Below are positions 1,265-61,384 of a stretch of 64,000 nucleotides of DNA, one piece after another (within the stretch, counting starts at the first letter, position 1; the number at the start of each line of letters is the position of its first letter). This DNA comes from an uncultured Gammaproteobacteria bacterium (GTDB taxonomy: Bacteria; Patescibacteriota; Microgenomatia; Daviesbacterales; UBA10151). Location: positions 12,139-76,138 of the forward strand of contig CAZCNP010000004.1 in the NCBI GenBank assembly GCA_964500725.1, read 5' to 3'. The notes beneath the pieces are model-generated. The model did not search any database. It was given only the letters and a program-made list of their open reading frames with translations, and had not been told where the DNA came from. Made by a program: the position numbers and the translations under genes.

Positions 1265-1316
1265 AATTTGTAATAATTTGCGCTAAAAGTTATAATTACC
1301 CTCAATGCCCAACTAA

Positions 1317-1703
1317 ATGAATAGGATTGAAGCTTCTGTAGAAAGATTCAAAAGCATCGCCAGGCTTACTGCAAACTCGCTAGTAGAGCCTCTGAGAAGT
1401 TCTGTTGTTTTATTTCATCTCGCTGGTTTAAAGACAGCTACTTATCCTTGGGTTCTACCAATTTCTGCCTCAGCAATTAGTTTTGCATTAACAAAGAATA
1501 CTACTCTATCTTTAGCACTTGGTGGTGGAGTATATATAGCAGAAGGCTTTGCTATAACAGCAGCAAATGAAGCTATCTTCAATAGAGCATCTTGTAAAAC
1601 TGTACAAATGAGGCAAGGAGCAAAAACAATAAGCCCCGAAGAACTGGCCAAACTTCTCACAGATGATAGCAAACCTAATAATGAAACTTATGAAGATCCA
1701 TAA
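1317..1703 (+). CDS. hypothetical protein
   Basis: A 128-aa ORF in the gap before mvk with no recognisable motif. Confidence 0.3.
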   Translation: MNRIEASVERFKSIARLTANSLVEPLRSSVVLFHLAGLKTATYPWVLPISASAISFALTKNTTLSLALGGGVYIAEGFAITAANEAIFNRASCKTVQMRQGAKTISPEELAKLLTDDSKPNNETYEDP

Positions 1704-1748
1704 AAGCATGTCTTTACAATTATTCAAAAGAAGGTAAAATCTTATAAG

Positions 1749-2738: not shown

Positions 2739-3154
2739 GGTAGCGTTTTGATGCCTACTTTTTTGAAATCTGAATCCAAACTGATAATGGAATCTATATT
2801 AAACCTTTTCATTAAAACTATAGTGGTAGCATCTGTTAGAGACAATTTATGCTCTGCGAACTTTTCTAAAGTTTCAAAAGCTTCAGCTTGAACCTGTTCA
2901 TCGACCCAAAGTTGGACTAAATTATTTTTTGCGATGCTATCTTTTATTAGATTGATAAACTGCTCTGTTATTTTGATATTAGTATCATAAATAAATCTGG
3001 TGACTGTTTCATCTATGACATCGTTTGAGGTACAAATTACTACACCATCTTTAATAAATCGTTTGATTAGGTTCTTAATATTTATATGTCTGGGTTGATC
3101 TGATCCTAAATATGAAATCCATGCTGAAGTATCCACAAAAATCTTACTGGCCAT
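2735..3154 (-). CDS. vapC: PIN-domain toxin VapC
   Basis: The N-terminus reads KIFVDTSAWISY and there is a C-terminal SLDSDF motif. The protein is 139 aa. Confidence 0.8.
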   Translation of the reverse strand: MASKIFVDTSAWISYLGSDQPRHINIKNLIKRFIKDGVVICTSNDVIDETVTRFIYDTNIKITEQFINLIKDSIAKNNLVQLWVDEQVQAEAFETLEKFAEHKLSLTDATTIVLMKRFNIDSIISLDSDFKKVGIKTLP

Positions 3155-3157
3155 GAG

Positions 3158-3409
3158 TTAATCTTTTAAATAAATTTCATCAATATTTTCAGCAATATTT
3201 TTACCAAACTTCGCGAAACCAGCCATCTTTAATAAAGGATTATTCTTAGCTCTGGTTTTGGCAAGCGCTTTAAGTAATTTAGAATATTGATCAGAGACTC
3301 TCTCTACAACATCCCTGATTATTTGTGAGCGGGACATACCAAGTTCTTTGGCCAAATCAGCCAGGGTGGAAACTGTATTGGGTTTTAAGTAAATCTGATA
3401 TCTTTGCAT
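3158..3409 (-). CDS. ribbon-helix-helix (CopG/VapB-type) antitoxin
   Basis: An 83-aa protein immediately upstream of the PIN gene on the same strand. The N-terminus YQIYLKPNTVSTLADLAKELGMSRSQIIRDVV looks like an RHH fold. Confidence 0.55.
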   Translation of the reverse strand: MQRYQIYLKPNTVSTLADLAKELGMSRSQIIRDVVERVSDQYSKLLKALAKTRAKNNPLLKMAGFAKFGKNIAENIDEIYLKD

Positions 3410-47603: not shown

Positions 47604-47924
47604 CTACCGGATTTTTGATCCTGGAGGAACTTTTTGGGATGGTTTTAGGAAAATAGGTTTGTTGTTATCTGCGCACAAAATCATCCCTTGAGACTCTAAA
47701 CCCATCATCATCCTTGGTTCTAAATTAGCTACCACAACCGCTTGTTTGCCTTTCAAATCTTCGCTCTTATACCATTGTTTTATGCCTGCCAGAATCTGTC
47801 TAGGTTGTTCTTCCCCTAAATCCACCTTTAGTTTAATTAGTTTCTCAGATCCTTCTATATCCTCTGCCTCCAGAACAGTACCAACTTTTAATTCAACCTT
47901 GGCAAAGTCTTCTATTGCAATCAT
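47604..47924 (-). CDS. tRNA-binding domain protein (CsaA / EMAP-II-like)
   Basis: The segment FAKVELKVGTVLEAE is typical of the OB-fold tRNA-binding domain. Confidence 0.7.
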   Translation of the reverse strand: MIAIEDFAKVELKVGTVLEAEDIEGSEKLIKLKVDLGEEQPRQILAGIKQWYKSEDLKGKQAVVVANLEPRMMMGLESQGMILCADNNKPIFLKPSQKVPPGSKIR

Positions 47925-48274
47925 AGTTGCTCCAACCCTAATACTAATTTCACTGCTTCTTCCACTTCTTGCAGCTTACTTTTGGAGATCTGCCCAATCT
48001 TTTTAATTAAACGATCCTGATCAATACTTCTAATAAGTACTGGCACTAAAACAGAGTGCTCATCAAAACCTCTTGGTTTGCCTAAATCTATGATCTCGGA
48101 AGTATAAGAAACAGGCACTATTGAACTACTCGGTATAACAATTACATGATATGTACCTTGATTAACGCTGTTATCCGAAATTATTAGAGCAGGTCGTTTT
48201 TTATGAATTTCCCTACCAAATGCAGGCTCTAAATTAACTACCCAAAATTCCCCTCTTGTAATTAGTTTGGCCAT
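47921..48274 (-). CDS. mazF: MazF/PemK-family endoribonuclease toxin
   Basis: The segment RGEFWVVNLEPAFGREIHKKRPALIIS is MazF/PemK-like. Confidence 0.8.
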   Translation of the reverse strand: MAKLITRGEFWVVNLEPAFGREIHKKRPALIISDNSVNQGTYHVIVIPSSSIVPVSYTSEIIDLGKPRGFDEHSVLVPVLIRSIDQDRLIKKIGQISKSKLQEVEEAVKLVLGLEQL

Positions 48275-48492
48275 CCTTCAATCTCAGTAGCTTTCCACTC
48301 TTCAGCAATTTTTTTATAAAAGTCTCTATTAATTTTTAAACTTTTAATAAGCTCTTTTTTAAGATTTCTCTTGGGTAACTTTTCTCTAACAGCATTTGCT
48401 ATAAACTTGCTTCTTTTTTTAGCAGGAATAGCCCTTTTCAGGTCTCTAGCCAATTCATATGGTAAAGTAATATTTAATCTTTGAGCTTGCAT
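48262..48492 (-). CDS. antitoxin (RHH/MazE-like) of the MazF pair
   Basis: A 76-aa protein whose N-terminus NITLPYELARDLKRAIP looks RHH-like. It overlaps the mazF start. Confidence 0.5.
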   Translation of the reverse strand: MQAQRLNITLPYELARDLKRAIPAKKRSKFIANAVREKLPKRNLKKELIKSLKINRDFYKKIAEEWKATEIEGWPN

Positions 48493-48528
48493 AATTCACC
48501 CTCCTTAATACACACTAATTATACACAC

Positions 48529-49524
48529 TTATTTAAAGTAGTCAAGTTTCATGGCCTTTTTAACTTCAGCCAAAGTCTTTTGGGCTTCTGCCCGGGCTTT
48601 GTCAGTTCCCTCTTTTAATATCTTTTCTACCAATTCTGGCTGGGTTTCATATTCAGCTCTCTTTTTTCTAATTGGATCCAAGAAATTATTTAAAACTTGG
48701 ACTAGATATTTTTTTACCTCAATATCCCCTACTTGGCCCCTTGAGTAAAGTAGTTTGTAGTTCGTAGTTTGTAGTTGGTCGCTCTCAGACCCAAAAGCAT
48801 CAAGATATATAAAAACAGGGTTTCCCTCTACATGTCCTGGGTCTGTAGCTTTTATTCTAGTAGGGTCTGTATACATACTCATCACTTTTTTTTCTACTTC
48901 CTCAGTTGAATCAGTTAAAAAAATGGCATTATTTAAAGATTTTCCCATTTTAGCTTGGCCATCTATACCTGGTAAAGTTGGCACCTCCCCTATCAAAGGT
49001 TCAGGGATAGGAAAAACTTCTCCATAAGTGCTATTAAACTTAATGGCAATATCCCTAGCATATTCCACATGAGCTTTTTGGTCTTTTCCTACAGGCACTA
49101 GATTAGCCCGAGGAAGCAAAATATCTGCAGCCATTAAAACTGGGTAATAAAATAAACCCACAGTATCTTCAGACCCTTGGTCTAATTTTTCCTTTAAAGC
49201 AGGCTGCCTGGCAATCAAAGCTCTAGGGGTTAAAACACTTAAAAAATAAGCCAGCTCTAACACTTCTGGAACTTGGGATTGGATAAAAAAGGTAACTTTA
49301 TTAGGATCTAACCCCACAGATAAATACCCTAACATCAATCCTTTAATATTTTCTTCCAGCTGATCTGCTTTATTAAAATGAGTAGTCAGAGCATGGAGAT
49401 CTACCAAGGGTATAAACATTTCATACTCATCTTGCAGTTTAACCCTATTTTTTAAAGAACCAATGTAATTACCCAGATGAAAACTATCATTGGTAGGCCT
49501 ATCCCCTGTTAAAATCCGTTTCAT
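48529..49524 (-). CDS. trpS: tryptophan--tRNA ligase
   Basis: A class I HIGH-like signature TGDRPTNDSFHLGNYIG is present, with the KMGKS-like KMGKSLNNA. It contains an in-frame heptamer-repeat insertion. Confidence 0.95.
   Translation of the reverse strand: MKRILTGDRPTNDSFHLGNYIGSLKNRVKLQDEYEMFIPLVDLHALTTHFNKADQLEENIKGLMLGYLSVGLDPNKVTFFIQSQVPEVLELAYFLSVLTPRALIARQPALKEKLDQGSEDTVGLFYYPVLMAADILLPRANLVPVGKDQKAHVEYARDIAIKFNSTYGEVFPIPEPLIGEVPTLPGIDGQAKMGKSLNNAIFLTDSTEEVEKKVMSMYTDPTRIKATDPGHVEGNPVFIYLDAFGSESDQLQTTNYKLLYSRGQVGDIEVKKYLVQVLNNFLDPIRKKRAEYETQPELVEKILKEGTDKARAEAQKTLAEVKKAMKLDYFK
48749..48780. repeat. tandem heptamer repeat (AGTTNGT)x4 inside trpS, in frame
   Basis: The sequence is agtagtttgtagttcgtagtttgtagttggtc. 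A 23-mer is identical to GT4 gene positions 34216-34238. It encodes the segment ...QLQTTNYKLLYS.... Confidence 0.8.
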
Positions 49525-49970
49525 GATTTATTTCCTTTTACCATATCTTCTTTAATTAGCTCTTCGGCAAGCTTCAACCCTTGTTTGGTATAAAAACCAT
49601 CATAGGTAAATACACCATCAGCTTTAATTTTTTTAGCAACAACTGCTACTGAACAATCAATTAGCGTATTTTTCTTGCTTCCCTTAGGATTAAATAGCGC
49701 AGCTGAGTTCTTTAAAATACCCTCATCAACAATATGAACTAACAATTGGTCATTTTTAATCATCTCAATAAGCTGAGTAGTTACCGCAGGTGACGGTAAC
49801 ACACGTTGAAATAGTGATATTATTTCAAAAAGTACTGAAGTGGGATAAATAAGCTTAAAACTTTGGGCAATTAATTGCTCAAATGTCCTGGTTGCTTTAG
49901 GATTTAGTGGATCGTTAGGATTATATAAAGCAAAAATAGCATCTGAGTCAACTACCACAGCTTTAACCAT
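49521..49970 (-). CDS. PIN-domain toxin (VapC-like)
   Basis: The N-terminal acidic-residue context VVVDSDAIFAL is followed by a second conserved D context. It lies downstream of a Phd-type antitoxin gene. Confidence 0.65.
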   Translation of the reverse strand: MVKAVVVDSDAIFALYNPNDPLNPKATRTFEQLIAQSFKLIYPTSVLFEIISLFQRVLPSPAVTTQLIEMIKNDQLLVHIVDEGILKNSAALFNPKGSKKNTLIDCSVAVVAKKIKADGVFTYDGFYTKQGLKLAEELIKEDMVKGNKS

Positions 49971-50238
49971 ATAATATACTGTCTGCCCTTTCGCGCAAAT
50001 CAGATGGTAAACTTTTCAACTGCTCTCTGCTGTCACTTGCTAATTTAAGCATATCTAAAGAAGCCTGCAAAGCCTTAGTTTGCTTCAGTTTCTCTAAATC
50101 CTCGAGGCTAATAATTGCGGCTTGAGGCTTATTGTTAGTAGTTAAAACTACTGCATGTTTTTTGGTCTTAACAGCTTCAATGATAGATTTATAAGACTTC
50201 TGCAGATTTCTGGCTGGCATAGTATGGGTATTTAACAT
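49963..50238 (-). CDS. Phd/YefM-type antitoxin
   Basis: A 91-aa protein with a Phd-like N-terminus. It overlaps the downstream PIN gene. Confidence 0.6.
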   Translation of the reverse strand: MLNTHTMPARNLQKSYKSIIEAVKTKKHAVVLTTNNKPQAAIISLEDLEKLKQTKALQASLDMLKLASDSREQLKSLPSDLRERADSILYG

Positions 50239-50265
50239 AGTAACATGCTACCAAATATGATATCA

Positions 50266-50295
50266 TTTGTCAATATCAATAAGCAATATCATTCA
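50266..50295. promoter_or_regulatory. putative promoter/operator of the Phd-PIN operon (copy 1)
   Basis: The sequence tttgtcaatatcaataagcaatatcattca contains the direct repeat CAATATCA twice. It is 29/30 identical to 50999-51028, upstream of the second Phd-PIN operon. Confidence 0.5.
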
Positions 50296-50326
50296 TTTGT
50301 AAGCCTATCCCCTGTAAGAATTCTTT

Positions 50327-50710
50327 TCACGCTAATTTTAACCCTTGTATCCTTTTAAAATGATTCATATTCCTAGTTAGTAATGTTAGATTATTTTCCA
50401 GAGCAACTGAGGCAATCAAAAGGTCAAAATCTTCCAGTCGTTTCCCATCCTTTTCCAACTCAGCTTTGATTTTACCAAATTCTATCATAATCTCATCATT
50501 TAGATTTAACATACCAAGATTAAGTATATTCAAAGTATATTTTAACAGTTCATAGGATTTTGTTGGATTATCTGATTTATAAACACCATATAATAATTCC
50601 CCCAAAGTAATAATACTAATTGCTGCTCCTTTTTCTAGGATATCTTTATCAAGGAATTTTTTCTTTCTTAAATGATCAACTAGAATATCTGTATCAAGTA
50701 AGTATTTCAT
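50327..50710 (-). CDS. vapC: PIN-domain toxin VapC
   Basis: The N-terminus reads KYLLDTDILVDHL and a C-terminal LLTRNMNHF motif is present. Confidence 0.8.
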   Translation of the reverse strand: MKYLLDTDILVDHLRKKKFLDKDILEKGAAISIITLGELLYGVYKSDNPTKSYELLKYTLNILNLGMLNLNDEIMIEFGKIKAELEKDGKRLEDFDLLIASVALENNLTLLTRNMNHFKRIQGLKLA

Positions 50711-50968
50711 CTACAAAAGAGGTGGGATCTTTCTCCTACGGGAATGACGGAACTTGGTAACATCAGGAAAATCAGGTAAAATCCCAAAAGTGGCATCAAG
50801 CGCCTTTTTAATATCCATTTTACCCGTCTTTGGCTTTTTAACAGGCACAATCTCGGCAATAGGTTTACCATGTTTTTCTATTATAGTGACTGTTTCATTA
50901 TAGTAGACTGAATTTAACACTGCAGAAAGTTTATTTTTCAGTTCAGTAGCGGAAATTGTGTTAATCAT
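50711..50968 (-). CDS. Phd/YefM-type antitoxin
   Basis: An 85-aa protein that directly abuts the PIN gene. The N-terminus ISATELKNKLSAVL is Phd-like. Confidence 0.6.
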   Translation of the reverse strand: MINTISATELKNKLSAVLNSVYYNETVTIIEKHGKPIAEIVPVKKPKTGKMDIKKALDATFGILPDFPDVTKFRHSRRRKIPPLL

Positions 50969-51098: not shown

Positions 51099-51584
51099 TC
51101 AGATTACACTGTCAATTTTTATACCTATGTTAGGCGGAGTTTCAGGACAGGCTAGCCTACAGGGTAAACCTAATCTTCTTCCTATTTCGGTTTTTATTTC
51201 TTGAAGGCGTATATTAAAAAAGCTGCCAGCGAAGATCACTTCCCGATCTCGCTCCTCCCTGCTTATAGGAGAAACTGCGCATTCTTGTAGGACCACTCCA
51301 CCGCCGATAACATGGCTCGGTGTAAGAGCTTCAACCTCTCTCACAGGGTATGTATTAGCTTCGAACTGTCCTGTCTCTGGATTAATATCTAAGGCTTGAA
51401 AAAAATCACCCTCTTGTGAGACTACTAGGGTCGACCGTACGCCAGCAAGCCTACCAGCTAAGAATTGATAAACTCTAAAGGGCCTCCCTGAATCTATACC
51501 CTGTCTTAACATTACTGACTCGAGCTCTTGTCTATTCAGAACTTGAGTTACCCTAGGTCTTTCATTTACTAATCTATCTACCAT
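51099..51584 (-). CDS. hypothetical protein in a GC-rich islet
   Basis: A 161-aa ORF with markedly higher GC than the surroundings. No motif was recognised. Confidence 0.4.
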   Translation of the reverse strand: MVDRLVNERPRVTQVLNRQELESVMLRQGIDSGRPFRVYQFLAGRLAGVRSTLVVSQEGDFFQALDINPETGQFEANTYPVREVEALTPSHVIGGGVVLQECAVSPISREERDREVIFAGSFFNIRLQEIKTEIGRRLGLPCRLACPETPPNIGIKIDSVI

Positions 51585-51861: not shown

Positions 51862-52866
51862 ATGCTGGCTGTTTTAAAAGAAAAAAAAGCTCCTGGTGTA
51901 ACAATTACTGATGTACCTATTCCTGAGCCCCAAAAAGATGAAGTGCTGGTTAAAATTATCTATGCTTCAATTTGTGGAACAGATATAGGGATCTATGACT
52001 GGATTCCTTGGGCTGCAGCCCATATTAAGCCTCCAACCATAATTGGCCATGAAATAGTAGGAAAAGTCGTTCAAGTAAATAGCAACACCAAAACAGACCT
52101 TAAAGCAGGAGACCTTGTTTCTTCAGAAACTCATATTTTTTGTTTAAATTGTTATCAATGTATGATTAAAAACTATCATATCTGCGAGAATATGAACCTG
52201 TTTGGCATTGGCAGGGAGGGTGGTTTTGCCCAATATGCCACTATCCCCTTGCGAACTACCTGGAAAAATGATCCCAAAATCCCAGTTGAGTTTATGAGTG
52301 TACAAGAGCCTTTAGGCAATGCTGTTCATTGTGTTACCAAAGCAGGAGTAAAGAACAAAAAAGTCTTAGTAATGGGTTTAGGACCAGTTGGACTTTGCGC
52401 TGGAGCAGTTAGCAAAGCTATGGGAGCCAAAGAGGTAGTTGGAATAAATGATGAGCCTTACAGAAGAAAAATTGCCAAGAAAATGGGTTTTGACAGAATT
52501 TTAGGCAAGCTGCCAGAAAAAGAGTATGGTAGTTTTGATGTAGTTTTGGAAATGAGTGGCAATAGATTAGGTATAGATGTGGCCTTTGATGCAGCCAGAA
52601 TTGGGGGTAAATTTGTGGCCTTTGGGATCCCTAAAGAATCAGTCACTATTGATTGGGGCAAATATATGATCAACAAAGAGCTAACTATTTTATCTGTATT
52701 TGGCAGAAGGCTGTGGGAAACTTGGAGACAAACCAGCCAACTTTTAAAGTCAAATAAAATAAATCTTGCTCCCCTAATTACCCACAAATTTGCTTTAAAA
52801 GATTTTGAAAAAGCTATGGCCCTTATGAAAAGTAGAAGGTGTGGTAAAATCCTGCTCAAACCGTAG
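51862..52866 (+). CDS. tdh: L-threonine 3-dehydrogenase (zinc-dependent MDR family)
   Basis: The zinc site CGTD appears as [13 protein letters not shown], with GHE further on. It is followed by kbl, the classic tdh-kbl pairing. Confidence 0.8.
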
Positions 52867-52868
52867 TT

Positions 52869-54056
52869 ATGACAGATTTCTATAAAAATCTAACAAACTC
52901 ACTGTCTAATAAAAAGCCTTTTGTAATCTCTTCAGGAGAAGGAGCGTATTTGACTATTGATGGTAAAAAAAGGCTGAATTTTTGTTCTAGTCACTACTTA
53001 GGTTTGGCTGTAGCAAACAGAATCAAAAAAGCCATTGTAAAAGCAGTAGATAAATATGGGGTAGGTACTGGCTACCGGACATTGGCAGGCAACCATATTT
53101 TGCACCTGCAACTAGAAGAGGCTTTGGCTAAATTCAAAAAAGCAGAAGCAGCAATTATTTTAACAGGAGGTTATATGGCCAACTGCGCTGCCATCCAAAC
53201 TATCATAGGCAAAGAAGATATTGTGATCTCTGATGAGTTAAATCATGCCTCCATTATTGATGCTGTAAGACTTTCCCAGGTTAAAAATAAGCTGATTTAT
53301 AAGCATAAAGATACGGGTGAGCTGGAAGAGAGACTCAAAGAAGCCATCAAACTACAAAAAACCCTTAAAGGAAATGGTGAAAAACCAGTGATTTTAATTG
53401 TGACTGATGGAGTTTTTTCGATGGATGGAGATTTAGCTCCCCTGCCAGAAATTGTGAAACTGGCTAAAAAATACCAAGCTTTAACCATGGTTGATGATGC
53501 GCACGGTGAAGGAGTTTTAGGCAAAGGCGGCAGGGGCATTGTTGATCACTATAGCCTGCATGGCCAAGTAGATATTGAAGTAGGCACTCTGTCTAAAGCA
53601 TTTAGTGTCATGGGTGGGTTTATTACTGGCCAAAAGGTATTGATTGATTATTATAAACAAAAAGCCAGGCAATTTTTATTCTCCAATGCTTTAACAATTC
53701 CGGATACTGCTGCTATTTTAGAAGGAGTGAAAATTTTATCAGCTTCAGATAAACTGGTTAAAACTTTATGGAGTAACACAAATTATCTAAAATCAGAGTT
53801 TAAAAAATTAGGCTTTGATATAGGAGAATCTCTTACTCCGATTACCCCAGTTATGCTGCCAAATGAAGATATTGCAAAAGAGTTTAGCTTAAAACTTTTT
53901 AATTTAGGAGTGCTAGCTACCCCTATTGTTTTCCCAATGGTAGCCAAAGATAAAGCCAGAATCAGAGTTATCCCTTCAGCAGCTCACACCAAATTAGATA
54001 TGGAATTTGGTATTAAGGCGTTTGAAAAAGTCGGCAAAGCTTTAAAAGTAATTTAA
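52869..54056 (+). CDS. kbl: 2-amino-3-ketobutyrate CoA ligase (glycine C-acetyltransferase)
   Basis: Conserved blocks read [37 protein letters not shown] and the PLP-lysine region GTLSKAF. These run in parallel with known Kbl proteins. Confidence 0.85.
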
Positions 54057-55342
54057 ATCTTTTTTCTAAACTGCTCGTAGCTTGTTAAAACTGGAGTATG
54101 TTCTGAAGTTTGATATTCCTGCTTAACTAAAATCTTGGTATCATCTTTTATGTCTTGATGCAACACTACCCCAGGGCCTACTAAAGAATTTGATCCCACT
54201 CTAACGCCTGGCATAGTGGAAGCATTTACTCCAATCCTGGCTCCCCTGCCAGCTATTAAGCCTAATTTATTCCTGCCTGTATCAATTTTTTGTTCAGCAA
54301 CTTTTATTGTTTGGTTATCTAACCTTAAATTTGCCAGCACAGCTCCGGAGCCCATCCCAAAATCCCCTTCTATAACCGAATCACCAATATAGTTGGTGTG
54401 AAACCAGCAATTTGCTCCAATATAGCTCCTAGTAATATCAGAGTTAAAACCAGTTACACAGCCTGCTTCTAAATCAACTTCTCTGATCATTGAGTTATTG
54501 CCCACAATACAATTTTTTCCAATATATGCAGGCCCTTTTATAGCTGCTCCTTCAAAAACCTTTGCCCCCTCCTCTATGATTACTTTACCCTCTATAATAG
54601 CTTTACTGGACACCTTAGCCCCTGGGGATATTTCTTGCTCAACCTGGGATAAAAAGTAAGTTGTAATATCTAAAATATGCCAGGGATATTTTAGAGGAAG
54701 CCATACCCCGCTATACTTGGCAAATCTGACTTTCAACCCATCTTGAATCATTTGATCCAAGGCCACCTCATACACATCATCTTTGCTGCTTTTAGCTTTT
54801 TGTAAATAATTTATAAGCTGTTGGCCATCTTTAAAGTAGTCAACCACTAATTTAACTAAATCTGAGGGCTCATTTCCTTCCCCTGGCTTTTCTACTATAC
54901 CCTCTACCCTATCCCCTAAACCCTTTTTTATATACCCTCCGGGAAAATACTTTTTAACTTGTAATCCTGTCAGGACTATATCTGCCTCTTGAACATTTAC
55001 AACTCCCTCAAATATTTTAGGCTCTATGACATCTTCCGCATTTATTATTACAAGTTCTCCGTCTAGCAAATCTTTGGCAGACAGTATTGCATCAGACATA
55101 CCTGTAGGCTCATTTTGCAGTCTAATCTGAAACTTCAGATTCAAGCTTTGAGCAATCTCGGCAATTGCCCCTTTGCTGCTTTCTTTGGTCACAATAATAA
55201 ATTGGTCAAAATTAGCTATTTGAGAGAGATGTTTTAAGTTGTGGTAAATCAGAGGTTGTCCTAAAAATGGCAGCAGGTATTTTTCTTCAACAATAGGCCA
55301 CATTCTCTTACCCTCCCCTGCTGCCAAAACCAAAATTTGCAT
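54053..55342 (-). CDS. sugar-phosphate nucleotidyltransferase with a C-terminal left-handed beta-helix (GlmU-like two-domain protein)
   Basis: The N-terminal NTP-transferase motif [13 protein letters not shown] is present. The C-terminal half has hexapeptide repeats. Confidence 0.7.
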
Positions 55343-55365
55343 ATAAATATTATATCAGGACTAAA

Positions 55366-57693
55366 TTATTTATTCTTTAGCTGACTGATTAAATATTCCC
55401 TAAATCCAGAGGGTCTGGAAAAAGCTATAACCTCTTTTATTCCTTTTTCTTTAGCGTACAAGAGGGCTTGTTCAATTAAAAGAATACTTGGTCTTTGGGT
55501 ATTGGAACGGATGATTTTGACGTTTTCTAAGCCTGGATATTTCATTAACACATTGTAACCCATGGAAGACTGATCCTGATCTCTGCCACCCTCTAATATC
55601 TTCCATACTATCGCCCCAGGCAGACCTCCCTTACTCTGACGATGAAAGTTTAAAACATGATCTAAATCTGAATTAACATACCATTCAATCTTTTCTTTAG
55701 CCAGCTGCGCTAACTTTTCTTTATCAATCCCATTAGTTTGCAGGTTTTGCTGCTCACCCTTTTTAGACAATCTAACAGAAATAGCCACACAAACCAGAGC
55801 ATCCCCATTTGGATCATTATTTTGTAAAGTACCACCATCTGTGGCTTGTTCCCAACTGGTTAAAGACTCCGCAATTTGGCTTTTTAGCCTGATACAAGAC
55901 AATGTTCCTACCAACCCTAATTTTTCTTCAAACACCCCTAGCAAAACTCCATTTTCAGCCCTACTGGCAAATTCAGATAAAGGAGCTTTCAAAGGAGCAA
56001 AACGCTCATTATTAATCTCTGTTGCAGTTTTTAAAATCTCAGTTTCTGTAGACAAAATCTGTCTAACAAAGTAGCGCTTCTCTTCCTGGCCTTCTTTTAA
56101 TAGCTTATCCACCTTTTTTTTAGTCTCAAACCTTTGGATTTTACCTGTAGAAGTCTTTGGTAAACTCTCAAAAACAAATACTTTTTTTGGCACCTCATAG
56201 GCAGAAATTCCTGTTATCTTACCCTCTTGTCCAGCCTCAATAATTTGTTTTACTAGAACTTGTCCATCAATTCCTTTTTTAGGAACAATTGCAGCACCTA
56301 CTTCCTCCCCCATTCTTACATCTTCAATCCCCACTACTGCCACCTCATCAATCCCAGGAAAATTTTTAAGCAAACTATCCTCAATTGCAGAGGGAGACAA
56401 ATTTACCCCACCCTTGATAATGATTTCTTTTATTCTACCAATCAAAAAGAAATACTTTTTTCCATCAATTATTTTAAAATATCCTAAATCCCCAGAATGA
56501 AACCAGCCTTTTTTAAATGCTTTGGCAGTTTCTTCAGGATTGTTTAAATAACCATCGGCCAAAACAGGACCGCTCATGCACACTTCTCCATGTTCCCCTT
56601 CCTTCTTTTCATTGTTATCTTGATCCATTACAGCTATTTCATCATTGGCAAGATGCACACCGATAGTATTTATCTTAACCATTTTTTGATAATCCTTTTC
56701 AGGCAAATCAACAGGCACACCAGCCACTCTTAAGGCAGTCTCTGTTTGACCATAGCCTTGAACTACCCTAATACCAAATGTTTTATAAAACCTTAAAGTT
56801 TCCTCAGGCAAAACTGGAGCTGAACCAATACAAATTCTTTTAAAAGAAGTTACATCCAGTTTTTCTGCTTTAAACTCATCATAGCGGGTTAATAAATCGT
56901 GTAAGATAGTAGGCACAATACTAGTATTGGTGGCCTTGTACTTTGCTGCTATCTGCCAAAATTTAGAAGCTGAGTAACGGGAATTTAGAATAATAGTCCC
57001 TCCTGCCAATAGTGTGGCCAAACAGAATTCAGTGGAGTTGATATGATGCAGAGGCAGCACAATATTAAACCTAGTATTCACATCCATCCTTTGCCAATCA
57101 ACAATACCTAAAGCATTTAAAAGACAAGCTTTAGTTGATAAAAGCACCCCTTTAGGCATGGCTGTTGTTCCTGAAGTATATAAAACAACATAATGAGTAT
57201 CTAAAGATTGATTATAATGATCTTCTGTAGTTTCTACAGGTAATAATTTCTCAAATTCTGCAAAATCAGACCAAGAAAAAATCTTAATAGGATAAATTTT
57301 TTCTATTTCTACCAGTTCTGCCTGCTTGTTGTCTTCTTCTAATTTAATAAAAAGGGCTTTAGAGCTTGTGTCCTTAAGTTTGAATACTTTTCTTTCTAAG
57401 GTATCTCTTTTTGAGTCCAAAGGCACAGTAGTTGCCCCAATTAAGGCACCAGCTAGTTCAAATAACAATACTTCTGGGGTATTGTTCATCAAAATTGCAT
57501 ACCTATCTCCTTTTTTAATACCTAAATTAGTTAAAAATGAAGCGGTTTGGGCTACCAATTTATATAATTTTTTATAGGAAATTATTTGCTCTTTATCAGA
57601 ATCAACAGAAGCAGCAATTATTGCCTGCTTGTCTGCAAACCTTTGAGCATGATTTTCCAGAAGTTGTCCAATTGATTGCAAATCATTTTGCAT
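55366..57693 (-). CDS. AMP-dependent synthetase/ligase (ANL superfamily) fused to a ~250-aa C-terminal domain (possibly GNAT-like acyltransferase)
   Basis: The AMP-binding motif YTSGTTAMPKGV and further ANL core motifs are present. A C-terminal extension of about 250 aa ends ...ILLIEQALLYAKEKGIKEVIAFSRP. Confidence 0.75.
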   Translation of the reverse strand: MQNDLQSIGQLLENHAQRFADKQAIIAASVDSDKEQIISYKKLYKLVAQTASFLTNLGIKKGDRYAILMNNTPEVLLFELAGALIGATTVPLDSKRDTLERKVFKLKDTSSKALFIKLEEDNKQAELVEIEKIYPIKIFSWSDFAEFEKLLPVETTEDHYNQSLDTHYVVLYTSGTTAMPKGVLLSTKACLLNALGIVDWQRMDVNTRFNIVLPLHHINSTEFCLATLLAGGTIILNSRYSASKFWQIAAKYKATNTSIVPTILHDLLTRYDEFKAEKLDVTSFKRICIGSAPVLPEETLRFYKTFGIRVVQGYGQTETALRVAGVPVDLPEKDYQKMVKINTIGVHLANDEIAVMDQDNNEKKEGEHGEVCMSGPVLADGYLNNPEETAKAFKKGWFHSGDLGYFKIIDGKKYFFLIGRIKEIIIKGGVNLSPSAIEDSLLKNFPGIDEVAVVGIEDVRMGEEVGAAIVPKKGIDGQVLVKQIIEAGQEGKITGISAYEVPKKVFVFESLPKTSTGKIQRFETKKKVDKLLKEGQEEKRYFVRQILSTETEILKTATEINNERFAPLKAPLSEFASRAENGVLLGVFEEKLGLVGTLSCIRLKSQIAESLTSWEQATDGGTLQNNDPNGDALVCVAISVRLSKKGEQQNLQTNGIDKEKLAQLAKEKIEWYVNSDLDHVLNFHRQSKGGLPGAIVWKILEGGRDQDQSSMGYNVLMKYPGLENVKIIRSNTQRPSILLIEQALLYAKEKGIKEVIAFSRPSGFREYLISQLKNK

Positions 57694-57699
57694 ATTAAG

Positions 57700-57772
57700 T
57701 ACCAGGGGTGGGGTGCGCGCCCACGACCGCCGGGATATGAATCCGGTGCTCTACTAGCTGAGCTACCCTGGC
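57700..57772 (-). tRNA. tRNA(CAU) (elongator Met-like) with a non-canonical T-loop
   Basis: A 73-nt cloverleaf forms on the minus strand. The acceptor is GCCAGGG/CCCTGGT, the D-arm GCTC-AGCTAGTA-GAGC and the anticodon arm CCGGA-TTCATAT-CCCGG. The T-arm is GTGGG-CGCGCAC-CCCAC, which lacks T54, psi55 and A58, and the D-loop has A18 instead of G18. Confidence 0.5.
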
Positions 57773-59463: not shown

Positions 59464-59535
59464 CGCGGGGAAGTGTAACGGCTGCACACAAGGCTCATAA
59501 TCTTGAGGCAGTAGGTTCAACTCCTACCCCCGCAA
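59464..59535 (+). tRNA. tRNA-Met (CAU), initiator-like (C1xA72 mismatch)
   Basis: A 72-nt cloverleaf with acceptor CGCGGGG...CCCCGCA and A73, the same ends as bacterial tRNA-fMet. The anticodon loop is CTCATAA and the T-loop TTCAACT. Confidence 0.75.
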
Positions 59536-59548
59536 CACAATTTAGTCC

Positions 59549-59842
59549 TTGAAAAGTCCTGAAATTGGTGCTATACTAGCTTCAATGATTACTCAACAAA
59601 CTCAGATAAAAATAAATCTTCCTCTAGCTCTTAAAGAATTTTTGGAGAGCAAAGCCAACAAATTTGGCATGCCTTTAGCAGGTTATATCAAACATTTAAT
59701 GTTAAAAGATGTAGAAGAAATGGAATATCCTGTATTTGAAGCATCTGATAGAACTATCCGAAAAGCCAAGGAGGCTTTAAAGAATAAAGATAAGTCCATA
59801 CTAGTGGAAGATATTGATGGATTTTTCAAAAATCTAAAATAA
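59549..59842 (+). CDS. antitoxin of a RelE/ParE-type pair (RHH-like)
   Basis: Its stop overlaps the start of the downstream RelE/ParE-like toxin gene. The true start is likely the internal MITQQT. Confidence 0.45.
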   Translation: MKSPEIGAILASMITQQTQIKINLPLALKEFLESKANKFGMPLAGYIKHLMLKDVEEMEYPVFEASDRTIRKAKEALKNKDKSILVEDIDGFFKNLK

Positions 59843-60114
59843 TGCAAATCCGGCTGGACGGAAAGCTTCAAAAAGAACTTGAAGTCCTAAGTAAAAAAGA
59901 TCTAAAGCTTTTTAAGAAAGTTCAGAAACAACTAAATCTTTTTGCTGACAATCCCAAACATAAATCGCTTCGTGTTCATAAACTTTCAGGAGAACTCGAG
60001 AATATGCGAAGTATTTCTATTACTAAAAGTATAAGAATGAGTTATTTACAAAACGGTAATGAAGCTTACTTTTTTGATATTGGAACTCATGATGAAGTTT
60101 ATAGAAAAAAATAG
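59842..60114 (+). CDS. RelE/ParE-family toxin
   Basis: A 90-aa protein with C-terminal ...YFFDIGTHDEVYRK, a typical RelE/ParE ending. Confidence 0.65.
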   Translation: MQIRLDGKLQKELEVLSKKDLKLFKKVQKQLNLFADNPKHKSLRVHKLSGELENMRSISITKSIRMSYLQNGNEAYFFDIGTHDEVYRKK

Positions 60115-60484: not shown

Positions 60485-61384
60485 TTGACATCTATAACCT
60501 ATAACATTATAATATGTATTATGATTACTCTACGCGATGCACACCAGCAATTCATTGGACACCTTAAAGGCAAATCCAGAGCCTCAGCTACTATCTTAGC
60601 TTATGGCAAAGACATTGATCAACTGGTAAGCTATTTACAAGACTTGGGCAAAACAGATCCAAAAAGTGTAACAACTGAGGATTTAGTAGCTTTTATGCAA
60701 AAGTTGAGCAAAGAAGACTACACCCCAAAATCAATCTCTAGAAAAACTAACTCTACTAAAACCTTCTTCAAATATTTAAAAACATCAAACATTATTGATG
60801 CTGACCCAGCCACTAACTTAGAACACCCAAAATTTGAAAATAAACCCCCTAGGATTTTAACCAAATTAGAATACCGCAGTCTGCGCGATGCAGCCAGAGC
60901 AGATACTAGAATGATAGCAGTTATAGAATTGCTTTTACAAACTGGCATTAGAATTGGAGAACTTGCCAAACTCAGGGTTGAGGATATTGATTTGGAAAAC
61001 CTCACACTTCATGTTCCCCTATTTGAAGACACCAGAGAAAGAACTATCCCATTAAATAAATCAGCAGCTGAAGCCATTAAAAATTACCTTCCCAAAAGAG
61101 CAAAAACTCCAAATCATGCCCTTTTTGTCACCAAAACTGGCAGACCTTTACTTATTAGAAATATCAGAACTGCCATTGATAGATACTTTAGGGTAGCTGG
61201 TATTAAAGGAGCTAAAGTTAATGATTTAAGACACACTTGGGTAGCTTTTCAATTACAAGCAGGTGTTCCTATGACTATGGTTTCAAAACTTGCAGGTCAC
61301 AAAAGACTCTCCACCACTGAAAAATACCTTCAATTTATCCAGGGACAAACAGTTGAAGGTAAAGTCAAATTAGAAGAGCTTTAA
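60485..61384 (+). CDS. tyrosine recombinase (XerC/XerD-like, phage-integrase family)
   Basis: The catalytic region reads LRHTWVAFQLQAGVPMTMVSKLAGHKRLSTTEKYLQ, with R, H..R and Y. An N-terminal SAM-like domain is present. Confidence 0.85.
   Translation: MTSITYNIIICIMITLRDAHQQFIGHLKGKSRASATILAYGKDIDQLVSYLQDLGKTDPKSVTTEDLVAFMQKLSKEDYTPKSISRKTNSTKTFFKYLKTSNIIDADPATNLEHPKFENKPPRILTKLEYRSLRDAARADTRMIAVIELLLQTGIRIGELAKLRVEDIDLENLTLHVPLFEDTRERTIPLNKSAAEAIKNYLPKRAKTPNHALFVTKTGRPLLIRNIRTAIDRYFRVAGIKGAKVNDLRHTWVAFQLQAGVPMTMVSKLAGHKRLSTTEKYLQFIQGQTVEGKVKLEEL

What the first reader, a model, noticed from the sequence alone, without database searches (positions are those of the whole stretch)
51862..57693. 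tdh-kbl operon converging on a nucleotidyltransferase-LbH protein and an acyl-adenylate ligase with a C-terminal add-on domain
Threonine dehydrogenase and 2-amino-3-ketobutyrate CoA ligase make glycine plus acetyl-CoA (or aminoacetone). On the opposite strand, the ANL-superfamily enzyme (YTSGTTAMPKGV) carries an extra ~250-aa C-terminal domain with GNAT-like features, which is an uncommon fusion. The gene just downstream of it on the same strand encodes a sugar-nucleotidyltransferase with a hexapeptide-repeat acyltransferase domain. Together they could form an unusual amino-acid or aminosugar acylation route for envelope modification.
Basis: partly seen in the sequence, partly recalled or inferred. 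Interest (0 to 1): 0.55.

Follow-up and report, generated by a model that had tools for sequence, protein, structure and literature searches.

The report
Acyl-CoA ligase fused to rearranged decarboxylase
A candidate-phyla-radiation bacterium encodes an acyl-CoA ligase fused to a previously unmodelled, sequence-rearranged relative of malonyl-thioester decarboxylases, which probably turns a malonate-type acid into acetyl-/acyl-CoA in one protein, and it is not a conserved partner of the neighbouring threonine and sugar genes.

Summary
The 775-aa protein (55366-57693, minus strand) is a complete ANL acyl-CoA ligase (residues 1-530) plus an independently folding 237-aa domain (539-775; AlphaFold pLDDT 88) that matches no Pfam or NCBIfam model.

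The extra domain has a GNAT fold, but of the decarboxylase branch (CurA, GphF and SxtA loading domains; malonyl-CoA decarboxylase). The equivalents of CurA His389, Thr355, Tyr419 and Arg404 are conserved as H684, S759, Y719 and R704.

Its sequence order is rearranged. The helix-strand unit that normally follows strand 4 sits at the extreme C-terminus.

The fusion is rare: 141 profile hits among 1.84 billion representative proteins. It occurs in CPR bacteria (Davies- and Gottesmanbacteria) and at least one archaeon. The ligase lies directly upstream of the domain in 31 of 31 non-redundant loci with enough sequence.

tdh and kbl are never nearby elsewhere. The GlmU-like gene recurs only next to a decayed remnant of the fusion. 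Other lineages place the fusion beside a 2-oxoacid:ferredoxin oxidoreductase and suf genes, inside a suf operon, or beside glycosyltransferases.

Best reading: a bifunctional malonate-type CoA ligase/decarboxylase (confidence 0.42). The substrate is unproven. This is a new variant of known kinds.

The parts
55366..57693 (-). Whole fusion gene, 775 aa: ANL acyl-CoA ligase plus a rearranged GNAT-like decarboxylase-type domain.
   Evidence: ORF. Pfam AMP-binding and AMP-binding_C. The identical protein occurs on six Logan contigs in the same context. The full-length model has pLDDT 85 and pTM 0.61, with a low-confidence linker at residues 536-538.
56104..57693 (-). ANL (adenylate-forming) acyl-CoA ligase module, residues 1-530. 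It has the P-loop YTSGTTAMPKGV (172-183), QGYGQTE (312-318), the hinge GRIKE and the catalytic Lys518 in PKTSTGK. Its family signature is PLHHINST (214-221) and TETALR, with R322 invariant.
   Evidence: the best solved relatives are oxalate-CoA ligase 5ie0 (E 8.5e-66) and FadD13. PLHHINST and R322 are conserved in 26 of 26 fusions. The oxalate-specific Ser289 and His319 of AtAAE3 are Ile289 and Leu321 here (PMC8905533).
56080..56103 (-). Short linker between the ANL C-terminal subdomain and the extra domain, residues 531-538.
   Evidence: pLDDT is below 50 at residues 536-538, and pTM is only 0.61 for the two-domain model.
55774..56079 (-). N-terminal half of the GNAT-like domain (strand 1, helices 1-2, strands 2-4), residues 539-640.
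   Evidence: Secondary structure. It aligns colinearly with canonical-order GNATs: profile positions 9-104 match P0077 residues 14-113.
55723..55773 (-). Variable, low-complexity loop, residues 641-657. It occupies the place where the helix 3-strand 5 unit sits in canonical GNATs, so it looks like the scar of the rearrangement.
   Evidence: Low pLDDT (blocks of 58-67). The length varies among homologues, with inserts of 60 aa or more in L017 and L018.
55513..55722 (-). Middle segment, residues 658-727: a helix, then DHVLNFH with H684 (codon 55642-55644), K688, R704 (55582-55584), D707, and GYNVLMKY with Y719 (55537-55539). This corresponds to the last part of a canonical GNAT-like decarboxylase (CurA H389, R404, Y419).
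   Evidence: Conservation across 42 family members: F683 42/42, H684 41/42, K688 42/42, R704 36/42, D707 42/42, Y719 42/42. Alignment to CurA and SxtA. Codon positions.
55369..55512 (-). Transposed helix 3-strand 5 unit at the extreme C-terminus, residues 728-775: PSILLIEQALLYAKEKGIKEVIAFSRP, with S759 (codon 55417-55419) equivalent to CurA Thr355 and human MCD Ser329, and invariant R760.
   Evidence: Profile positions 202-233 match P0077 residues 123-154, which lie between strand 4 and the His segment in the canonical order. After re-ordering, the profile aligns all canonical relatives in one colinear piece. S759 is Ser in 40 and Thr in 2 of 42 members; R760 is 42/42.
54053..55342 (-). Archaeal-type GlmU-like sugar-1-phosphate nucleotidylyltransferase/acetyltransferase, 23 nt downstream on the same strand. 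It is context only, not a conserved partner.
   Evidence: Absent next to the fusion in all other loci except L068, where the fusion is only a remnant.
51862..54056 (+). tdh-kbl pair (threonine 3-dehydrogenase-like, 51862-52866; glycine C-acetyltransferase-like, 52869-54056). It converges on the GlmU-like gene. It is context only.
   Evidence: There is no tblastn match in any related locus.
57700..57772 (-). tRNA gene (anticodon CAT) ending 6 nt before the fusion's start codon. It was probably transcribed together with the fusion.
   Evidence: Rfam tRNA, 51.1 bits; ARAGORN did not call it. Sequence. Absent from the closest relative, L006.

Best explanation
The gene encodes a two-step enzyme.

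Step 1. The N-terminal ANL module adenylates a small carboxylic acid that carries a second carboxylate beta to the thioester carbon (malonate or a substituted malonate). It then ligates that acid to CoA.

Step 2. The tethered C-terminal domain removes the free carboxylate. It is a GNAT-fold domain of the CurA/GphF/SxtA/malonyl-CoA-decarboxylase type. It would use the H684/S759 dyad, with Y719 holding the histidine, and release acetyl-CoA (or the corresponding acyl-CoA) plus CO2.

The net effect is a one-protein version of the two-gene MatB + MatA route: acid + ATP + CoA gives acyl-CoA + CO2 + AMP + PPi.

The decarboxylase domain is unusual because the C-terminal half of the GNAT fold is permuted. 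The helix 3-strand 5 unit, which carries the pyrophosphate-binding loop and the catalytic Ser, has moved from behind strand 4 to the very end of the protein.

What is shown: the domain architecture, the fold, homology to the decarboxylase branch, conservation of the catalytic residues, the rearranged order, the constancy of the fusion, and the absence of conserved linkage to tdh, kbl and glmU.

What is inferred: the decarboxylase activity, the identity of the acid, the use of CoA rather than another thiol, and the physiological role (supply of acetyl-CoA in organisms with minimal metabolism).
For: 1. Independent fold. The C-terminal domain models at pLDDT 88 and pTM 0.85.

2. Structural neighbours. 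The top Foldseek PDB hits are the CurA GNAT-L loading domain 2ref (E 6.4e-07) and the SxtA decarboxylase didomain 7uci (3.6e-05). They rank ahead of ordinary acetyltransferases.

3. Transitive sequence homology. The family profile finds the canonical-order relative P0103 at E 6e-08 in 1.84 billion proteins. P0103 in turn matches SxtA (4e-18), CurA (6e-17), GphF (8e-17) and malonyl-CoA decarboxylase 4ksf (9e-04). The re-ordered family profile reaches SxtA directly at E 1.9e-05 and CurA at 1.3e-03, calculated for a PDB-sized database.

4. Catalytic residues. In that alignment CurA T355, H389, R404 and Y419 fall on S759, H684, R704 and Y719. These are conserved in 42/42 (40 Ser, 2 Thr), 41/42, 36/42 and 42/42 family members. 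PMC3701320 documents the His-Ser/Thr dyad and the Tyr as the decarboxylase machinery, and notes that the His replaces the general-acid Tyr of canonical GNATs.

5. Constant fusion. The ligase is directly upstream of the domain in 31 of 31 non-redundant loci with enough flank, across ANL identities from 72% down to 43%.

6. Polar ligase pocket. The ANL pocket is invariant and polar: HHINST, Q/S316 and R322, the last one residue after the position of the oxalate-binding His of AtAAE3. This suits a small dicarboxylate better than a fatty acid.

7. Closest solved ligases. They include dicarboxylate ligases: oxalate-CoA ligase is the top hit and malonyl-CoA synthetase is also matched.
Against: - No activity has been measured, and the acid is unknown.
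- By sequence the ANL module is closer to oxalyl-CoA ligase and FadD13 than to MatB. The best NCBIfam names are 'long-chain-fatty-acid--CoA ligase', all below their cut-offs.
- The characterised PKS members of the decarboxylase branch act on carrier-protein thioesters inside PKS modules. No carrier protein or PKS is present here.
- Gene neighbourhoods point to no malonate transporter or malonate metabolism. They show Fe-S assembly genes with a 2-oxoacid:ferredoxin oxidoreductase in one large clade, a suf operon in another lineage, and glycosyltransferases in others.
- I could not inspect model coordinates. The spatial proximity of H684, S759 and Y719 in the rearranged fold is therefore assumed from homology, not verified.
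- The inter-domain arrangement is not confidently predicted (pTM 0.61), so substrate channelling is conjecture.
Confidence: 0.42

Rival explanations
1. Activate-and-transfer enzyme. The ANL module activates a fatty or other acid, and the GNAT-like domain transfers the acyl group to an acceptor such as an aminosugar, a glycolipid, a lysolipid or an amino acid. This would resemble Aas (acyltransferase plus acyl-ACP synthetase) or the FeeM-type N-acyl amino acid synthases, and would serve membrane or envelope remodelling in lipid-scavenging CPR cells. It includes the first reader's aminosugar-acylation idea.
For: - The best NCBIfam names for the ANL part are fatty-acid-CoA ligases, and FadD13 is among the top solved relatives.
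- FeeM (2g0b) appears among the weaker fold matches.
- Sugar-transfer genes lie just downstream in several lineages: GlmU-like in the window, GT2 with a 4-nt overlap in L051 and also in L018 and L019, and GT4 plus a GT28-like gene in L026.
Against: - The domain carries the decarboxylase-type His/Ser-Thr/Tyr set and lacks the canonical Glu/Tyr pair (PMC3701320).
- Every solved close relative of the bridging homologue P0103 is a decarboxylase.
- The ANL pocket signature is polar, not hydrophobic.
- Glycosyltransferases are among the commonest CPR genes, and no acceptor-related neighbour is universal.
- GlmU persists in L068 without an intact fusion.
Confidence: 0.2
2. The module works with Fe-S cluster biogenesis or the 2-oxoacid:ferredoxin oxidoreductase. 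For example, it could make or remove a CoA thioester that the Suf machinery or the oxidoreductase needs. The chemistry is unknown.
For: - In the Gottesmanbacteria-type clade the fusion is divergently adjacent to a two-subunit 2-oxoacid:ferredoxin oxidoreductase. It is followed by sufU-sufS-sufD-sufB-sufC.
- A suf gene lies within 4 kb downstream in 13 of 24 non-redundant groups with enough flank, and the oxidoreductase within 3 kb upstream in 13 of 22.
- In a distant lineage (P0021; C-domain 30% identical) the fusion sits inside a suf operon. It lies between a cysteine desulfurase (4-nt overlap) and sufB (2-nt gap), behind an Rrf2 regulator.
Against: - Only two lineages show the association. 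The first is a single clade in which synteny may simply be inherited.
- At least six other contexts lack it, among them the window, L006, L018/L019/L051, L025, L026, L027 and L056-L059.
- CPR genomes pack unrelated genes tightly.
- There is no known biochemical need for such an enzyme in Suf systems.
Confidence: 0.1
3. Self-regulation. The GNAT-like domain is a protein lysine acyltransferase that modifies the catalytic Lys518 of its own ANL module, as Pat and AcuA do for acetyl-CoA synthetase.
For: GNAT-mediated acylation of the A10 lysine is a well-known control of ANL enzymes (established knowledge). The GNAT domain is tethered right after the A10 motif.
Against: - The catalytic residues are of the decarboxylase type.
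- The window domain matches no Pfam Acetyltransf_* model.
- The closest solved relatives are decarboxylases, not protein acetyltransferases.
Confidence: 0.06

Closest known systems
GNAT-like decarboxylase domains of PKS loading modules (CurA GNAT-L, GphF, SxtA; PDB 2ree/2ref, 6mfc, 7uci)
   Same: - GNAT fold; these are the best structural and, transitively, the best sequence relatives.
- Conserved Thr/Ser-His dyad, the Tyr that holds the His, and the Arg equivalent to CurA R404.
- A G-containing pyrophosphate loop survives in most family members (S-L-G-T-Q-L-I-E against CurA G-L-G-D-R-L-L-E).
   Different: - It is not part of a PKS and there is no carrier protein or adaptor domain. It is fused to an ANL ligase instead.
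- The sequence order is rearranged, with helix 3-strand 5 at the C-terminus.
- A family-specific insert (RKPKGG, with invariant K688) follows the catalytic His.
- It is found in CPR bacteria and an archaeon rather than in cyanobacteria or myxobacteria.
Malonyl-CoA decarboxylase (MatA / human MLYCD; PDB 4ksf, 4ksa) together with malonyl-CoA synthetase MatB / ACSF3
   Same: - The proposed net chemistry is the same: malonate to malonyl-CoA to acetyl-CoA plus CO2.
- The MCD catalytic domain is the same GNAT-like decarboxylase type, with a Ser-His dyad and a Tyr (PMC3701320).
- The bridging homologue P0103 matches MCD at E 9e-04.
   Different: - Here the two activities are in one polypeptide, in ligase-then-decarboxylase order.
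- The N-terminal helical oligomerisation domain of MCD is absent.
- The Arg equivalent to CurA R404 is kept, whereas MCD has Asp there.
- The ANL part is not closest to MatB.
- I found no paper describing such a fusion.
Oxalyl-CoA synthetase (AtAAE3, 5ie0; LsOCS, 6qjz) and FadD13 (3r44)
   Same: These are the closest solved ANL relatives over the whole 520 residues (E 8.5e-66, 2.4e-60 and 1.9e-57). All core ANL motifs are shared.
   Different: - The oxalate-specific Ser289 and His319 are Ile289 and Leu321 here (PMC8905533).
- The fusion family has its own invariant pocket signature, PLHHINST and TETALR.
- None of these enzymes carries a GNAT domain.
Aas (2-acyl-GPE acyltransferase / acyl-ACP synthetase fusion) and the regulatory pairs Pat or AcuA with Acs
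   Same: These are precedents for an ANL enzyme physically or functionally coupled to an acyl-CoA-using second domain (established knowledge).
   Different: - The Aas partner is a PlsC-type acyltransferase placed N-terminally.
- Pat and AcuA are canonical GNAT protein acetyltransferases.
- The domain here has decarboxylase-type residues.

Membership tests
ANL superfamily (acyl-CoA synthetase type) | Pfam AMP-binding and AMP-binding_C above the gathering scores | tested here: met
   238.4 bits against a cut-off of 29.9, and 43.6 bits against 24.5.
ANL superfamily (acyl-CoA synthetase type) | Core motifs: P-loop (T/S)SG(T/S)TGxPKG, GYGxTE, hinge GRxKD/E, and the catalytic Lys in PKTxxGK | tested here: met
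   YTSGTTAMPKGV (172-183), QGYGQTE (312-318), GRIKE (419-423) and PKTSTGK with K518. All are invariant across the 13 aligned fusions.
Oxalyl-CoA synthetase (AAE3 type) | Oxalate-binding Ser289 and His319 (AtAAE3 numbering), which are conserved only among oxalyl-CoA synthetases | tested here: not met
   The aligned residues are Ile289 and Leu321 (definition from PMC8905533).
Malonyl-/methylmalonyl-CoA synthetase (MatB / ACSF3) | Equivalog-level sequence match, and the residues that bind the distal carboxylate | tested here: inconclusive
   NCBIfam malonyl-CoA synthase PRK07514 scores 217.7 bits against a cut-off of 558. PDB MatB 4fuq matches at E 7.7e-38 but ranks fifteenth. I could not obtain a residue-level alignment to MatB.
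GNAT-like thioester decarboxylases (CurA/GphF/SxtA GNAT-L; MCD catalytic domain) | GNAT fold with closest similarity to this branch | tested here: met
   Foldseek top hits are 2ref, 2ree and 7uci. The bridging homologue P0103 matches SxtA, CurA, GphF and MCD.
GNAT-like thioester decarboxylases (CurA/GphF/SxtA GNAT-L; MCD catalytic domain) | His-Ser/Thr catalytic dyad (CurA H389/T355; human MCD H423/S329) | tested here: met
   H684 is conserved in 41/42 members. S759 is Ser in 40 and Thr in 2 of 42. Both align to the CurA and SxtA residues.
GNAT-like thioester decarboxylases (CurA/GphF/SxtA GNAT-L; MCD catalytic domain) | Tyr that hydrogen-bonds the catalytic His (CurA Y419; MCD Y456) | tested here: met
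   Y719 is conserved in 42/42 members and aligns with CurA Y419.
GNAT-like thioester decarboxylases (CurA/GphF/SxtA GNAT-L; MCD catalytic domain) | Canonical order of secondary-structure elements (strand 4, helix 3, strand 5, His segment, strands 6-7) | tested here: not met
   The helix 3-strand 5 unit lies after strand 7 at the C-terminus. Canonical relatives match in three out-of-order pieces, and match in one piece only after re-ordering.
GNAT-like thioester decarboxylases (CurA/GphF/SxtA GNAT-L; MCD catalytic domain) | Decarboxylation of a malonyl-type thioester | not testable with these tools
   This needs an enzyme assay.
GNAT-like thioester decarboxylases (CurA/GphF/SxtA GNAT-L; MCD catalytic domain) | Family context: a PKS loading module with ACP (CurA type) or an N-terminal helical domain (MCD type) | tested here: not met
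   No PKS, ACP or helical domain is present. The domain follows an ANL ligase in 31 of 31 loci.
Canonical GNAT N-acetyltransferases | Match to a Pfam Acetyltransf_* model, and a general-acid Tyr at the start of helix 4 | tested here: not met
   The window domain has no Pfam hit at E <= 0.01. The Tyr position is His684 (PMC3701320). Distant canonical-order relatives do match Acetyltransf_1 weakly.
L-threonine 3-dehydrogenase / glycine C-acetyltransferase pair (tdh-kbl) | NCBIfam equivalog score above the cut-off | tested here: not met
   tdh: 356.5 bits against 458, and 347.3 against 380. kbl: 417.3 bits against 460, and 474.3 against 535 for the BioF/Kbl subfamily model. These are clear best hits but sit below the cut-offs, as is common for divergent CPR proteins.
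Bifunctional GlmU (archaeal type, TIGR03992) | Nucleotidyltransferase plus left-handed beta-helix acetyltransferase, and the model cut-off | tested here: inconclusive
   Both domains are present. The score is 261.7 bits against a cut-off of 292.1 over the full model length.

The most novel reading that the evidence does not exclude
The ANL-decarboxylase fusion is an accessory component of Fe-S cluster metabolism in ultra-small prokaryotes. It would generate or consume a CoA thioester needed by the Suf machinery or its main client, the 2-oxoacid:ferredoxin oxidoreductase. This would be loosely reminiscent of the acyl-ACP requirement of the mitochondrial cysteine desulfurase complex. Two observations keep this reading open: the fusion is embedded inside a suf operon in one lineage, and it lies between the oxidoreductase and suf genes across a whole CPR clade.
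Probability: 0.07. Interest if true: 0.85.

Novelty: new variant of a known kind. Interest (0 to 1): 0.55.

Why it matters
If the prediction holds, three things follow.

1. It would be the first single-polypeptide route from a malonate-type acid to acetyl-/acyl-CoA.
2. It would be a natural case of a GNAT fold whose C-terminal half is permuted while the decarboxylase catalytic residues are retained. That would interest enzyme-evolution and protein-design work.
3. It would define a protein family with no Pfam or NCBIfam model that is confined to CPR bacteria and at least one archaeon. How these organisms obtain acetyl-CoA and manage CoA thioesters is poorly understood.

The recurrent placement next to suf and 2-oxoacid:ferredoxin oxidoreductase genes gives a concrete, testable lead into their central metabolism.

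For annotation, the family is currently called 'long-chain-fatty-acid--CoA ligase', 'AMP-binding protein' or 'hypothetical'. That is probably misleading.

Tried and rejected

- Model coordinates are not exposed, so I could not measure distances between catalytic residues.

**Searches that found nothing useful**
- The profile of the native-order family against PDB sequences found nothing meaningful. The link to CurA and SxtA appeared only through the canonical-order relative P0103 and the re-ordered profile.
- A PDB search with the pocket segment did not bring MatB into the displayed alignments. A paper search for MatB structural detail gave nothing usable. The Skiba 2020 paper on GNAT-like decarboxylases is not held.
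A scan with the P0021 domain found nothing. The scan with A2 worked.
- The promoter and terminator scan gave counts equal to shuffled controls, so it says nothing about operon structure.
- No paper was found on an ANL plus GNAT-like decarboxylase fusion or on a permuted GNAT.

**Ideas considered and rejected**
- Oxalyl-CoA synthetase identity: rejected on the two specificity residues.
- A 'split' two-gene form (P0010 next to a 538-aa ANL gene): rejected. It is a frameshifted fusion.
- L020 as a second copy: rejected. It is a contig-end duplicate of L010.
- Canonical-order stand-alone relatives (P0077, P0085) as ANL neighbours: they are not.

Full report

Yes. The window carries four ORFs at the stated coordinates:
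- a 334-aa ORF at 51862-52866 (+);
- a 395-aa ORF at 52869-54056 (+);
- a 429-aa ORF at 54053-55342 (-);
- a 775-aa ORF at 55366-57693 (-).

Their best family matches are as follows. All sit somewhat below NCBI's equivalog cut-offs, as is usual for divergent lineages.
- L-threonine 3-dehydrogenase: TIGR00692, 356 bits.
- BioF/Kbl-family glycine C-acetyltransferase: PRK06939, 417 bits.
- Archaeal-type bifunctional GlmU: TIGR03992, 262 bits over the full model, with NTP_transferase and Hexapep domains.
- An ANL enzyme: AMP-binding, E 1.5e-70, plus AMP-binding_C.

The ANL part ends at about residue 530. The remaining 245 residues match no Pfam or NCBIfam model.

The surroundings and the nearest relative mark the source as a Microgenomates-group CPR bacterium. 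The surroundings include toxin-antitoxin pairs, TrpRS, FtsH, PolA, an ATP-dependent DNA ligase and about 37% GC. The nearest relative is a Candidatus Daviesbacteria genome whose ANL part is 72% identical. The identical protein in the same context occurs on six short-read assemblies.

**2. What is the C-terminal domain?**

It folds on its own. Modelled with nine homologues, residues 531-775 reach pLDDT 88 and pTM 0.85.

Foldseek against the PDB ranks these first:
- the CurA GNAT-L loading domain, 2ref (E 6.4e-07) and 2ree;
- the SxtA methyltransferase-decarboxylase didomain, 7uci (3.6e-05).

Ordinary GNAT acetyltransferases follow further down the list.

An exhaustive profile search of 1.84 billion representative proteins found only 141 relatives. 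They fall into three groups:
- 725-820-aa proteins, which are ANL fusions in all four that were Pfam-scanned;
- fragments;
- stand-alone proteins of about 230-340 aa.

Some weaker stand-alone hits match Pfam Acetyltransf_1, and one weakly matches the malonyl-CoA decarboxylase domain. One of them, P0103, gives a firm bridge to solved structures. It matches SxtA at 4e-18, CurA at 6e-17, GphF at 8e-17 and malonyl-CoA decarboxylase 4ksf at 9e-04. The domain therefore belongs to the GNAT-like decarboxylase branch of the GNAT superfamily.

**3. The rearranged sequence order**

Canonical-order relatives such as P0077 match the window family in three pieces that are out of order:
- profile positions 9-104 (strands 1 to 4) match P0077 residues 14-113;
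- profile positions 202-233 (LLIExALLYAKxxGIKxVIAFSRPxGFR, the helix 3-strand 5 unit) match residues 123-154;
- profile positions 155-183 (GATVWKILENGRPDDxEAMGYNVLMKYP, strands 6-7) match residues 201-229.

In the window protein the helix 3-strand 5 unit has therefore moved from behind strand 4 to the extreme C-terminus. A variable, low-confidence loop (residues 641-657) is left in its old place.

I re-ordered a 42-sequence family alignment into the canonical order and rebuilt the profile. Every canonical relative then aligned in one colinear domain with a higher score. P0077 went from three pieces, best 44 bits, to one piece of 117 bits. CurA and SxtA also aligned end to end.

The change amounts to a circular permutation of the C-terminal half of the fold (A-B-C becomes A-C-B). 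The library search found no paper describing a permuted GNAT.

**4. Catalytic residues**

The re-ordered alignment places the CurA residues on the window protein as follows:

| CurA residue | Window residue |
|---|---|
| T355 in AVT-LC | S759 in AFS-RP |
| H389 in LRFH | H684 in LNFH |
| R404 in GYRPKD | R704 in GGRDQD |
| Y419 in LVSY | Y719 in LMKY |

Conservation across 42 family members, fused and stand-alone:
- H684: 41/42.
- S759: Ser in 40, Thr in 2.
- Y719: 42/42.
- R704: 36/42.
- F683, K688, D707, G712 and R760: all invariant.

The MCD structure paper (PMC3701320) establishes three points:
- The His-Ser/Thr dyad and the Tyr that holds the His are the decarboxylase machinery shared by CurA and MCD.
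- The His replaces the general-acid Tyr of ordinary GNATs.
- The general-base Glu of ordinary GNATs is absent.

Most family members also keep a glycine-containing loop before helix 3 (S-L-G-T-Q-L-I-E, against CurA G-L-G-D-R-L-L-E). The window's own subgroup has S-P-S-I-L-L-I-E there. This loop is the CoA pyrophosphate site in GNATs.

**5. The ligase module**

All core ANL motifs are present, including the catalytic Lys518. The closest solved relatives are:
- Arabidopsis oxalate-CoA ligase (E 8.5e-66);
- grass-pea oxalyl-CoA synthetase;
- FadD13.

The two residues that define oxalate specificity, Ser289 and His319 in AtAAE3 (PMC8905533), are Ile289 and Leu321 here.

Across 26 fusions the pocket-lining segments are invariant and polar:
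- PLHHINST, 26/26 (Thr221 25/26);
- QGYG(Q/S)TET(A/S)LR, with R322 invariant and one residue after the oxalate-binding His position.

I read this as favouring a small acid with a polar or anionic distal group. This is inference; the acid is not identified.

**6. Is the fusion conserved, and are the neighbours?**

Scans of one genome per species and of metagenomes, plus look-ups of individual proteins, gave 66 related loci, of which 61 carry the domain in 47 non-redundant groups.
- The ligase lies directly upstream of the domain in 31 of 31 groups with enough upstream sequence.
- ANL identity to the window ranges from 72% down to 43%.
- Hosts are Daviesbacteria, Gottesmanbacteria and other Patescibacteria. 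Some entries are mislabelled 'uncultured Gammaproteobacteria'. At least one host is an archaeon, since fibrillarin and Nop genes are nearby.

An apparent two-gene form (P0010) is a frameshifted fusion. Truly stand-alone rearranged forms also exist, for example P0020.

The full-length model has confident domains but a pTM of only 0.61 and a disordered linker. The decarboxylase-like domain is therefore flexibly tethered to the mobile ANL C-terminal subdomain.

tdh and kbl never recur near the fusion. The GlmU-like gene recurs only in L068, a close relative. There the fusion has decayed to a 62-aa 3' remnant behind a toxin-antitoxin pair and a 706-aa gene.

**7. What the other neighbourhoods show**

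In the Gottesmanbacteria-type clade the order is:
- a beta-lactamase-like gene, then Lon;
- the two subunits of a 2-oxoacid:ferredoxin oxidoreductase, which is divergent from the fusion;
- the fusion;
- sufU-sufS-sufD-sufB-sufC, convergent with the fusion.

A suf gene lies within 4 kb downstream in 13 of 24 non-redundant groups with enough flank. The oxidoreductase lies within 3 kb upstream in 13 of 22.

In a distant lineage (P0021; domain 30% identical) the fusion sits inside a suf operon, behind an Rrf2 regulator. It overlaps the preceding cysteine desulfurase gene by 4 nt and ends 2 nt before sufB.

Other lineages show different neighbours:
- a GT2 glycosyltransferase directly downstream (4-nt overlap in L051; also L018 and L019), with TPR and PMT_2 genes;
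- GT4 and a GT28-like gene (L026);
- MsrA and a lytic transglycosylase (L027);
- a histidine kinase, an MscS-like channel and topoisomerase I (L056-L059).

No neighbour is universal. Two weak themes recur: Fe-S metabolism and glycosyl transfer.

**8. Most likely mechanism**

The only constant partner of the decarboxylase-type domain is the ligase. All characterised members of this GNAT branch decarboxylate malonyl-type thioesters. The most economical reading is therefore a two-step enzyme:
- The ANL module makes the CoA thioester of malonate or a substituted malonate.
- The tethered domain removes the free carboxylate through the H684/S759 dyad.
- The product is acetyl-CoA, or a substituted acyl-CoA, plus CO2.

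This is a one-protein analogue of MatB plus MatA. I put this at 0.42.

It would give organisms with minimal metabolism an extra entry to acetyl-CoA. Three neighbours also touch acetyl-CoA: the oxidoreductase in the Gottesmanbacteria-type clade, and Kbl and GlmU in the window. Given the lack of co-conservation, I treat that as coincidence-level support only.

Rivals:
- an activate-and-transfer enzyme for envelope or lipid acylation (0.20);
- a role tied to Fe-S or oxidoreductase metabolism with unknown chemistry (0.10);
- self-regulation by lysine acylation (0.06).

**9. Novelty and verdict**

The parts belong to known superfamilies. Three things appear undescribed:
- the combination of an ANL ligase with a GNAT-like decarboxylase;
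- the rearranged GNAT order;
- the restriction to CPR bacteria and an archaeon.

No Pfam or NCBIfam model covers the domain, and no paper was found. I classify it as a new variant of a known kind, with moderate interest (0.55).

Noticed in passing
window 57700-57772 (-): A tRNA gene with anticodon CAT scores 51 bits with Rfam, but ARAGORN does not call it. Its T-loop reads CGCGCAC instead of the usual TTCRANY, so T54, psi55 and A58 are missing. No CCA is encoded. It ends 6 nt before the ATG of the fusion gene. A normal tRNA-Met lies at 59464-59536. The odd tRNA is absent from the closest relative, L006.
   Followed up: partly
L023 5361-13356 (NCBI GCA_040960375.1) and L024: A distant member of the fusion family sits inside a suf operon. 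The gene order is Rrf2 regulator, cysteine desulfurase, fusion, SufB/D, SufS-like, SufU, SufC, FeS_assembly_P. Gene junctions overlap by 4 nt or are separated by 2 nt.
   Followed up: partly
L007-L017 and many of L032-L055 (for example L007 3575-15641): There is conserved synteny in Gottesmanbacteria-type genomes. A two-subunit 2-oxoacid:ferredoxin oxidoreductase lies divergent from the fusion, and sufU-sufS-sufD-sufB-sufC follows it. This holds down to about 50% identity of the oxidoreductase.
   Followed up: partly
L007 11907-14519 (-); also L015 and L017: In some of these genomes SufB is 826-884 aa long and carries Hint/LAGLIDADG (intein) domains. Other genomes have an intein-free SufB of about 470 aa.
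   Followed up: no
L006 10122-10208; L068 1308-1496: Decayed 3' remnants of the fusion gene are present (LLYAKEKGIKEV(A/I)AFSRPSGFR...). In L006 the remnant lies 1.4 kb beyond an intact copy. In L068 it replaces the gene, next to a HigBA-like pair. This region seems to be a hot spot for rearrangement in Daviesbacteria-like genomes.
   Followed up: partly
L019 (= L005) 812-3243; L021 5410-7744: The fusion gene is interrupted in two genomes. In L019 it is split into 428-aa and 377-aa ORFs. In L021 it is frameshifted just before the PKTSTGK motif. These are either pseudogenes or assembly errors.
   Followed up: partly
window 47921-50968 and 59549-60114: Toxin-antitoxin pairs are densely clustered around the locus. 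There are two PhdYeFM/PIN pairs at 49521-50968, a further small pair at 59549-60114, and a 117-aa ORF at 47921-48274. An integrase-like gene (60485-61384) and a 725-aa gene (61806-63983; not domain-scanned) are shared with L006.
   Followed up: no
window 51099-51584 (-): A 161-aa ORF lies upstream of tdh on the opposite strand. It has no Pfam match and no homologue in any related locus.
   Followed up: no
L009, L011, L013, L016, L019 (record titles): Several TPA metagenome-assembled genomes that carry this CPR-type locus are titled 'uncultured Gammaproteobacteria bacterium'. Their gene content and similarity to Gottesmanbacteria loci suggest the taxonomic label is wrong.
   Followed up: no
L025 9726-11390 and L028 8171-9820: An ABC1/UbiB-family kinase gene lies near both the archaeal fusion (P0013) and an archaeal canonical-order stand-alone relative (P0085). 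This may be mere synteny.
   Followed up: no
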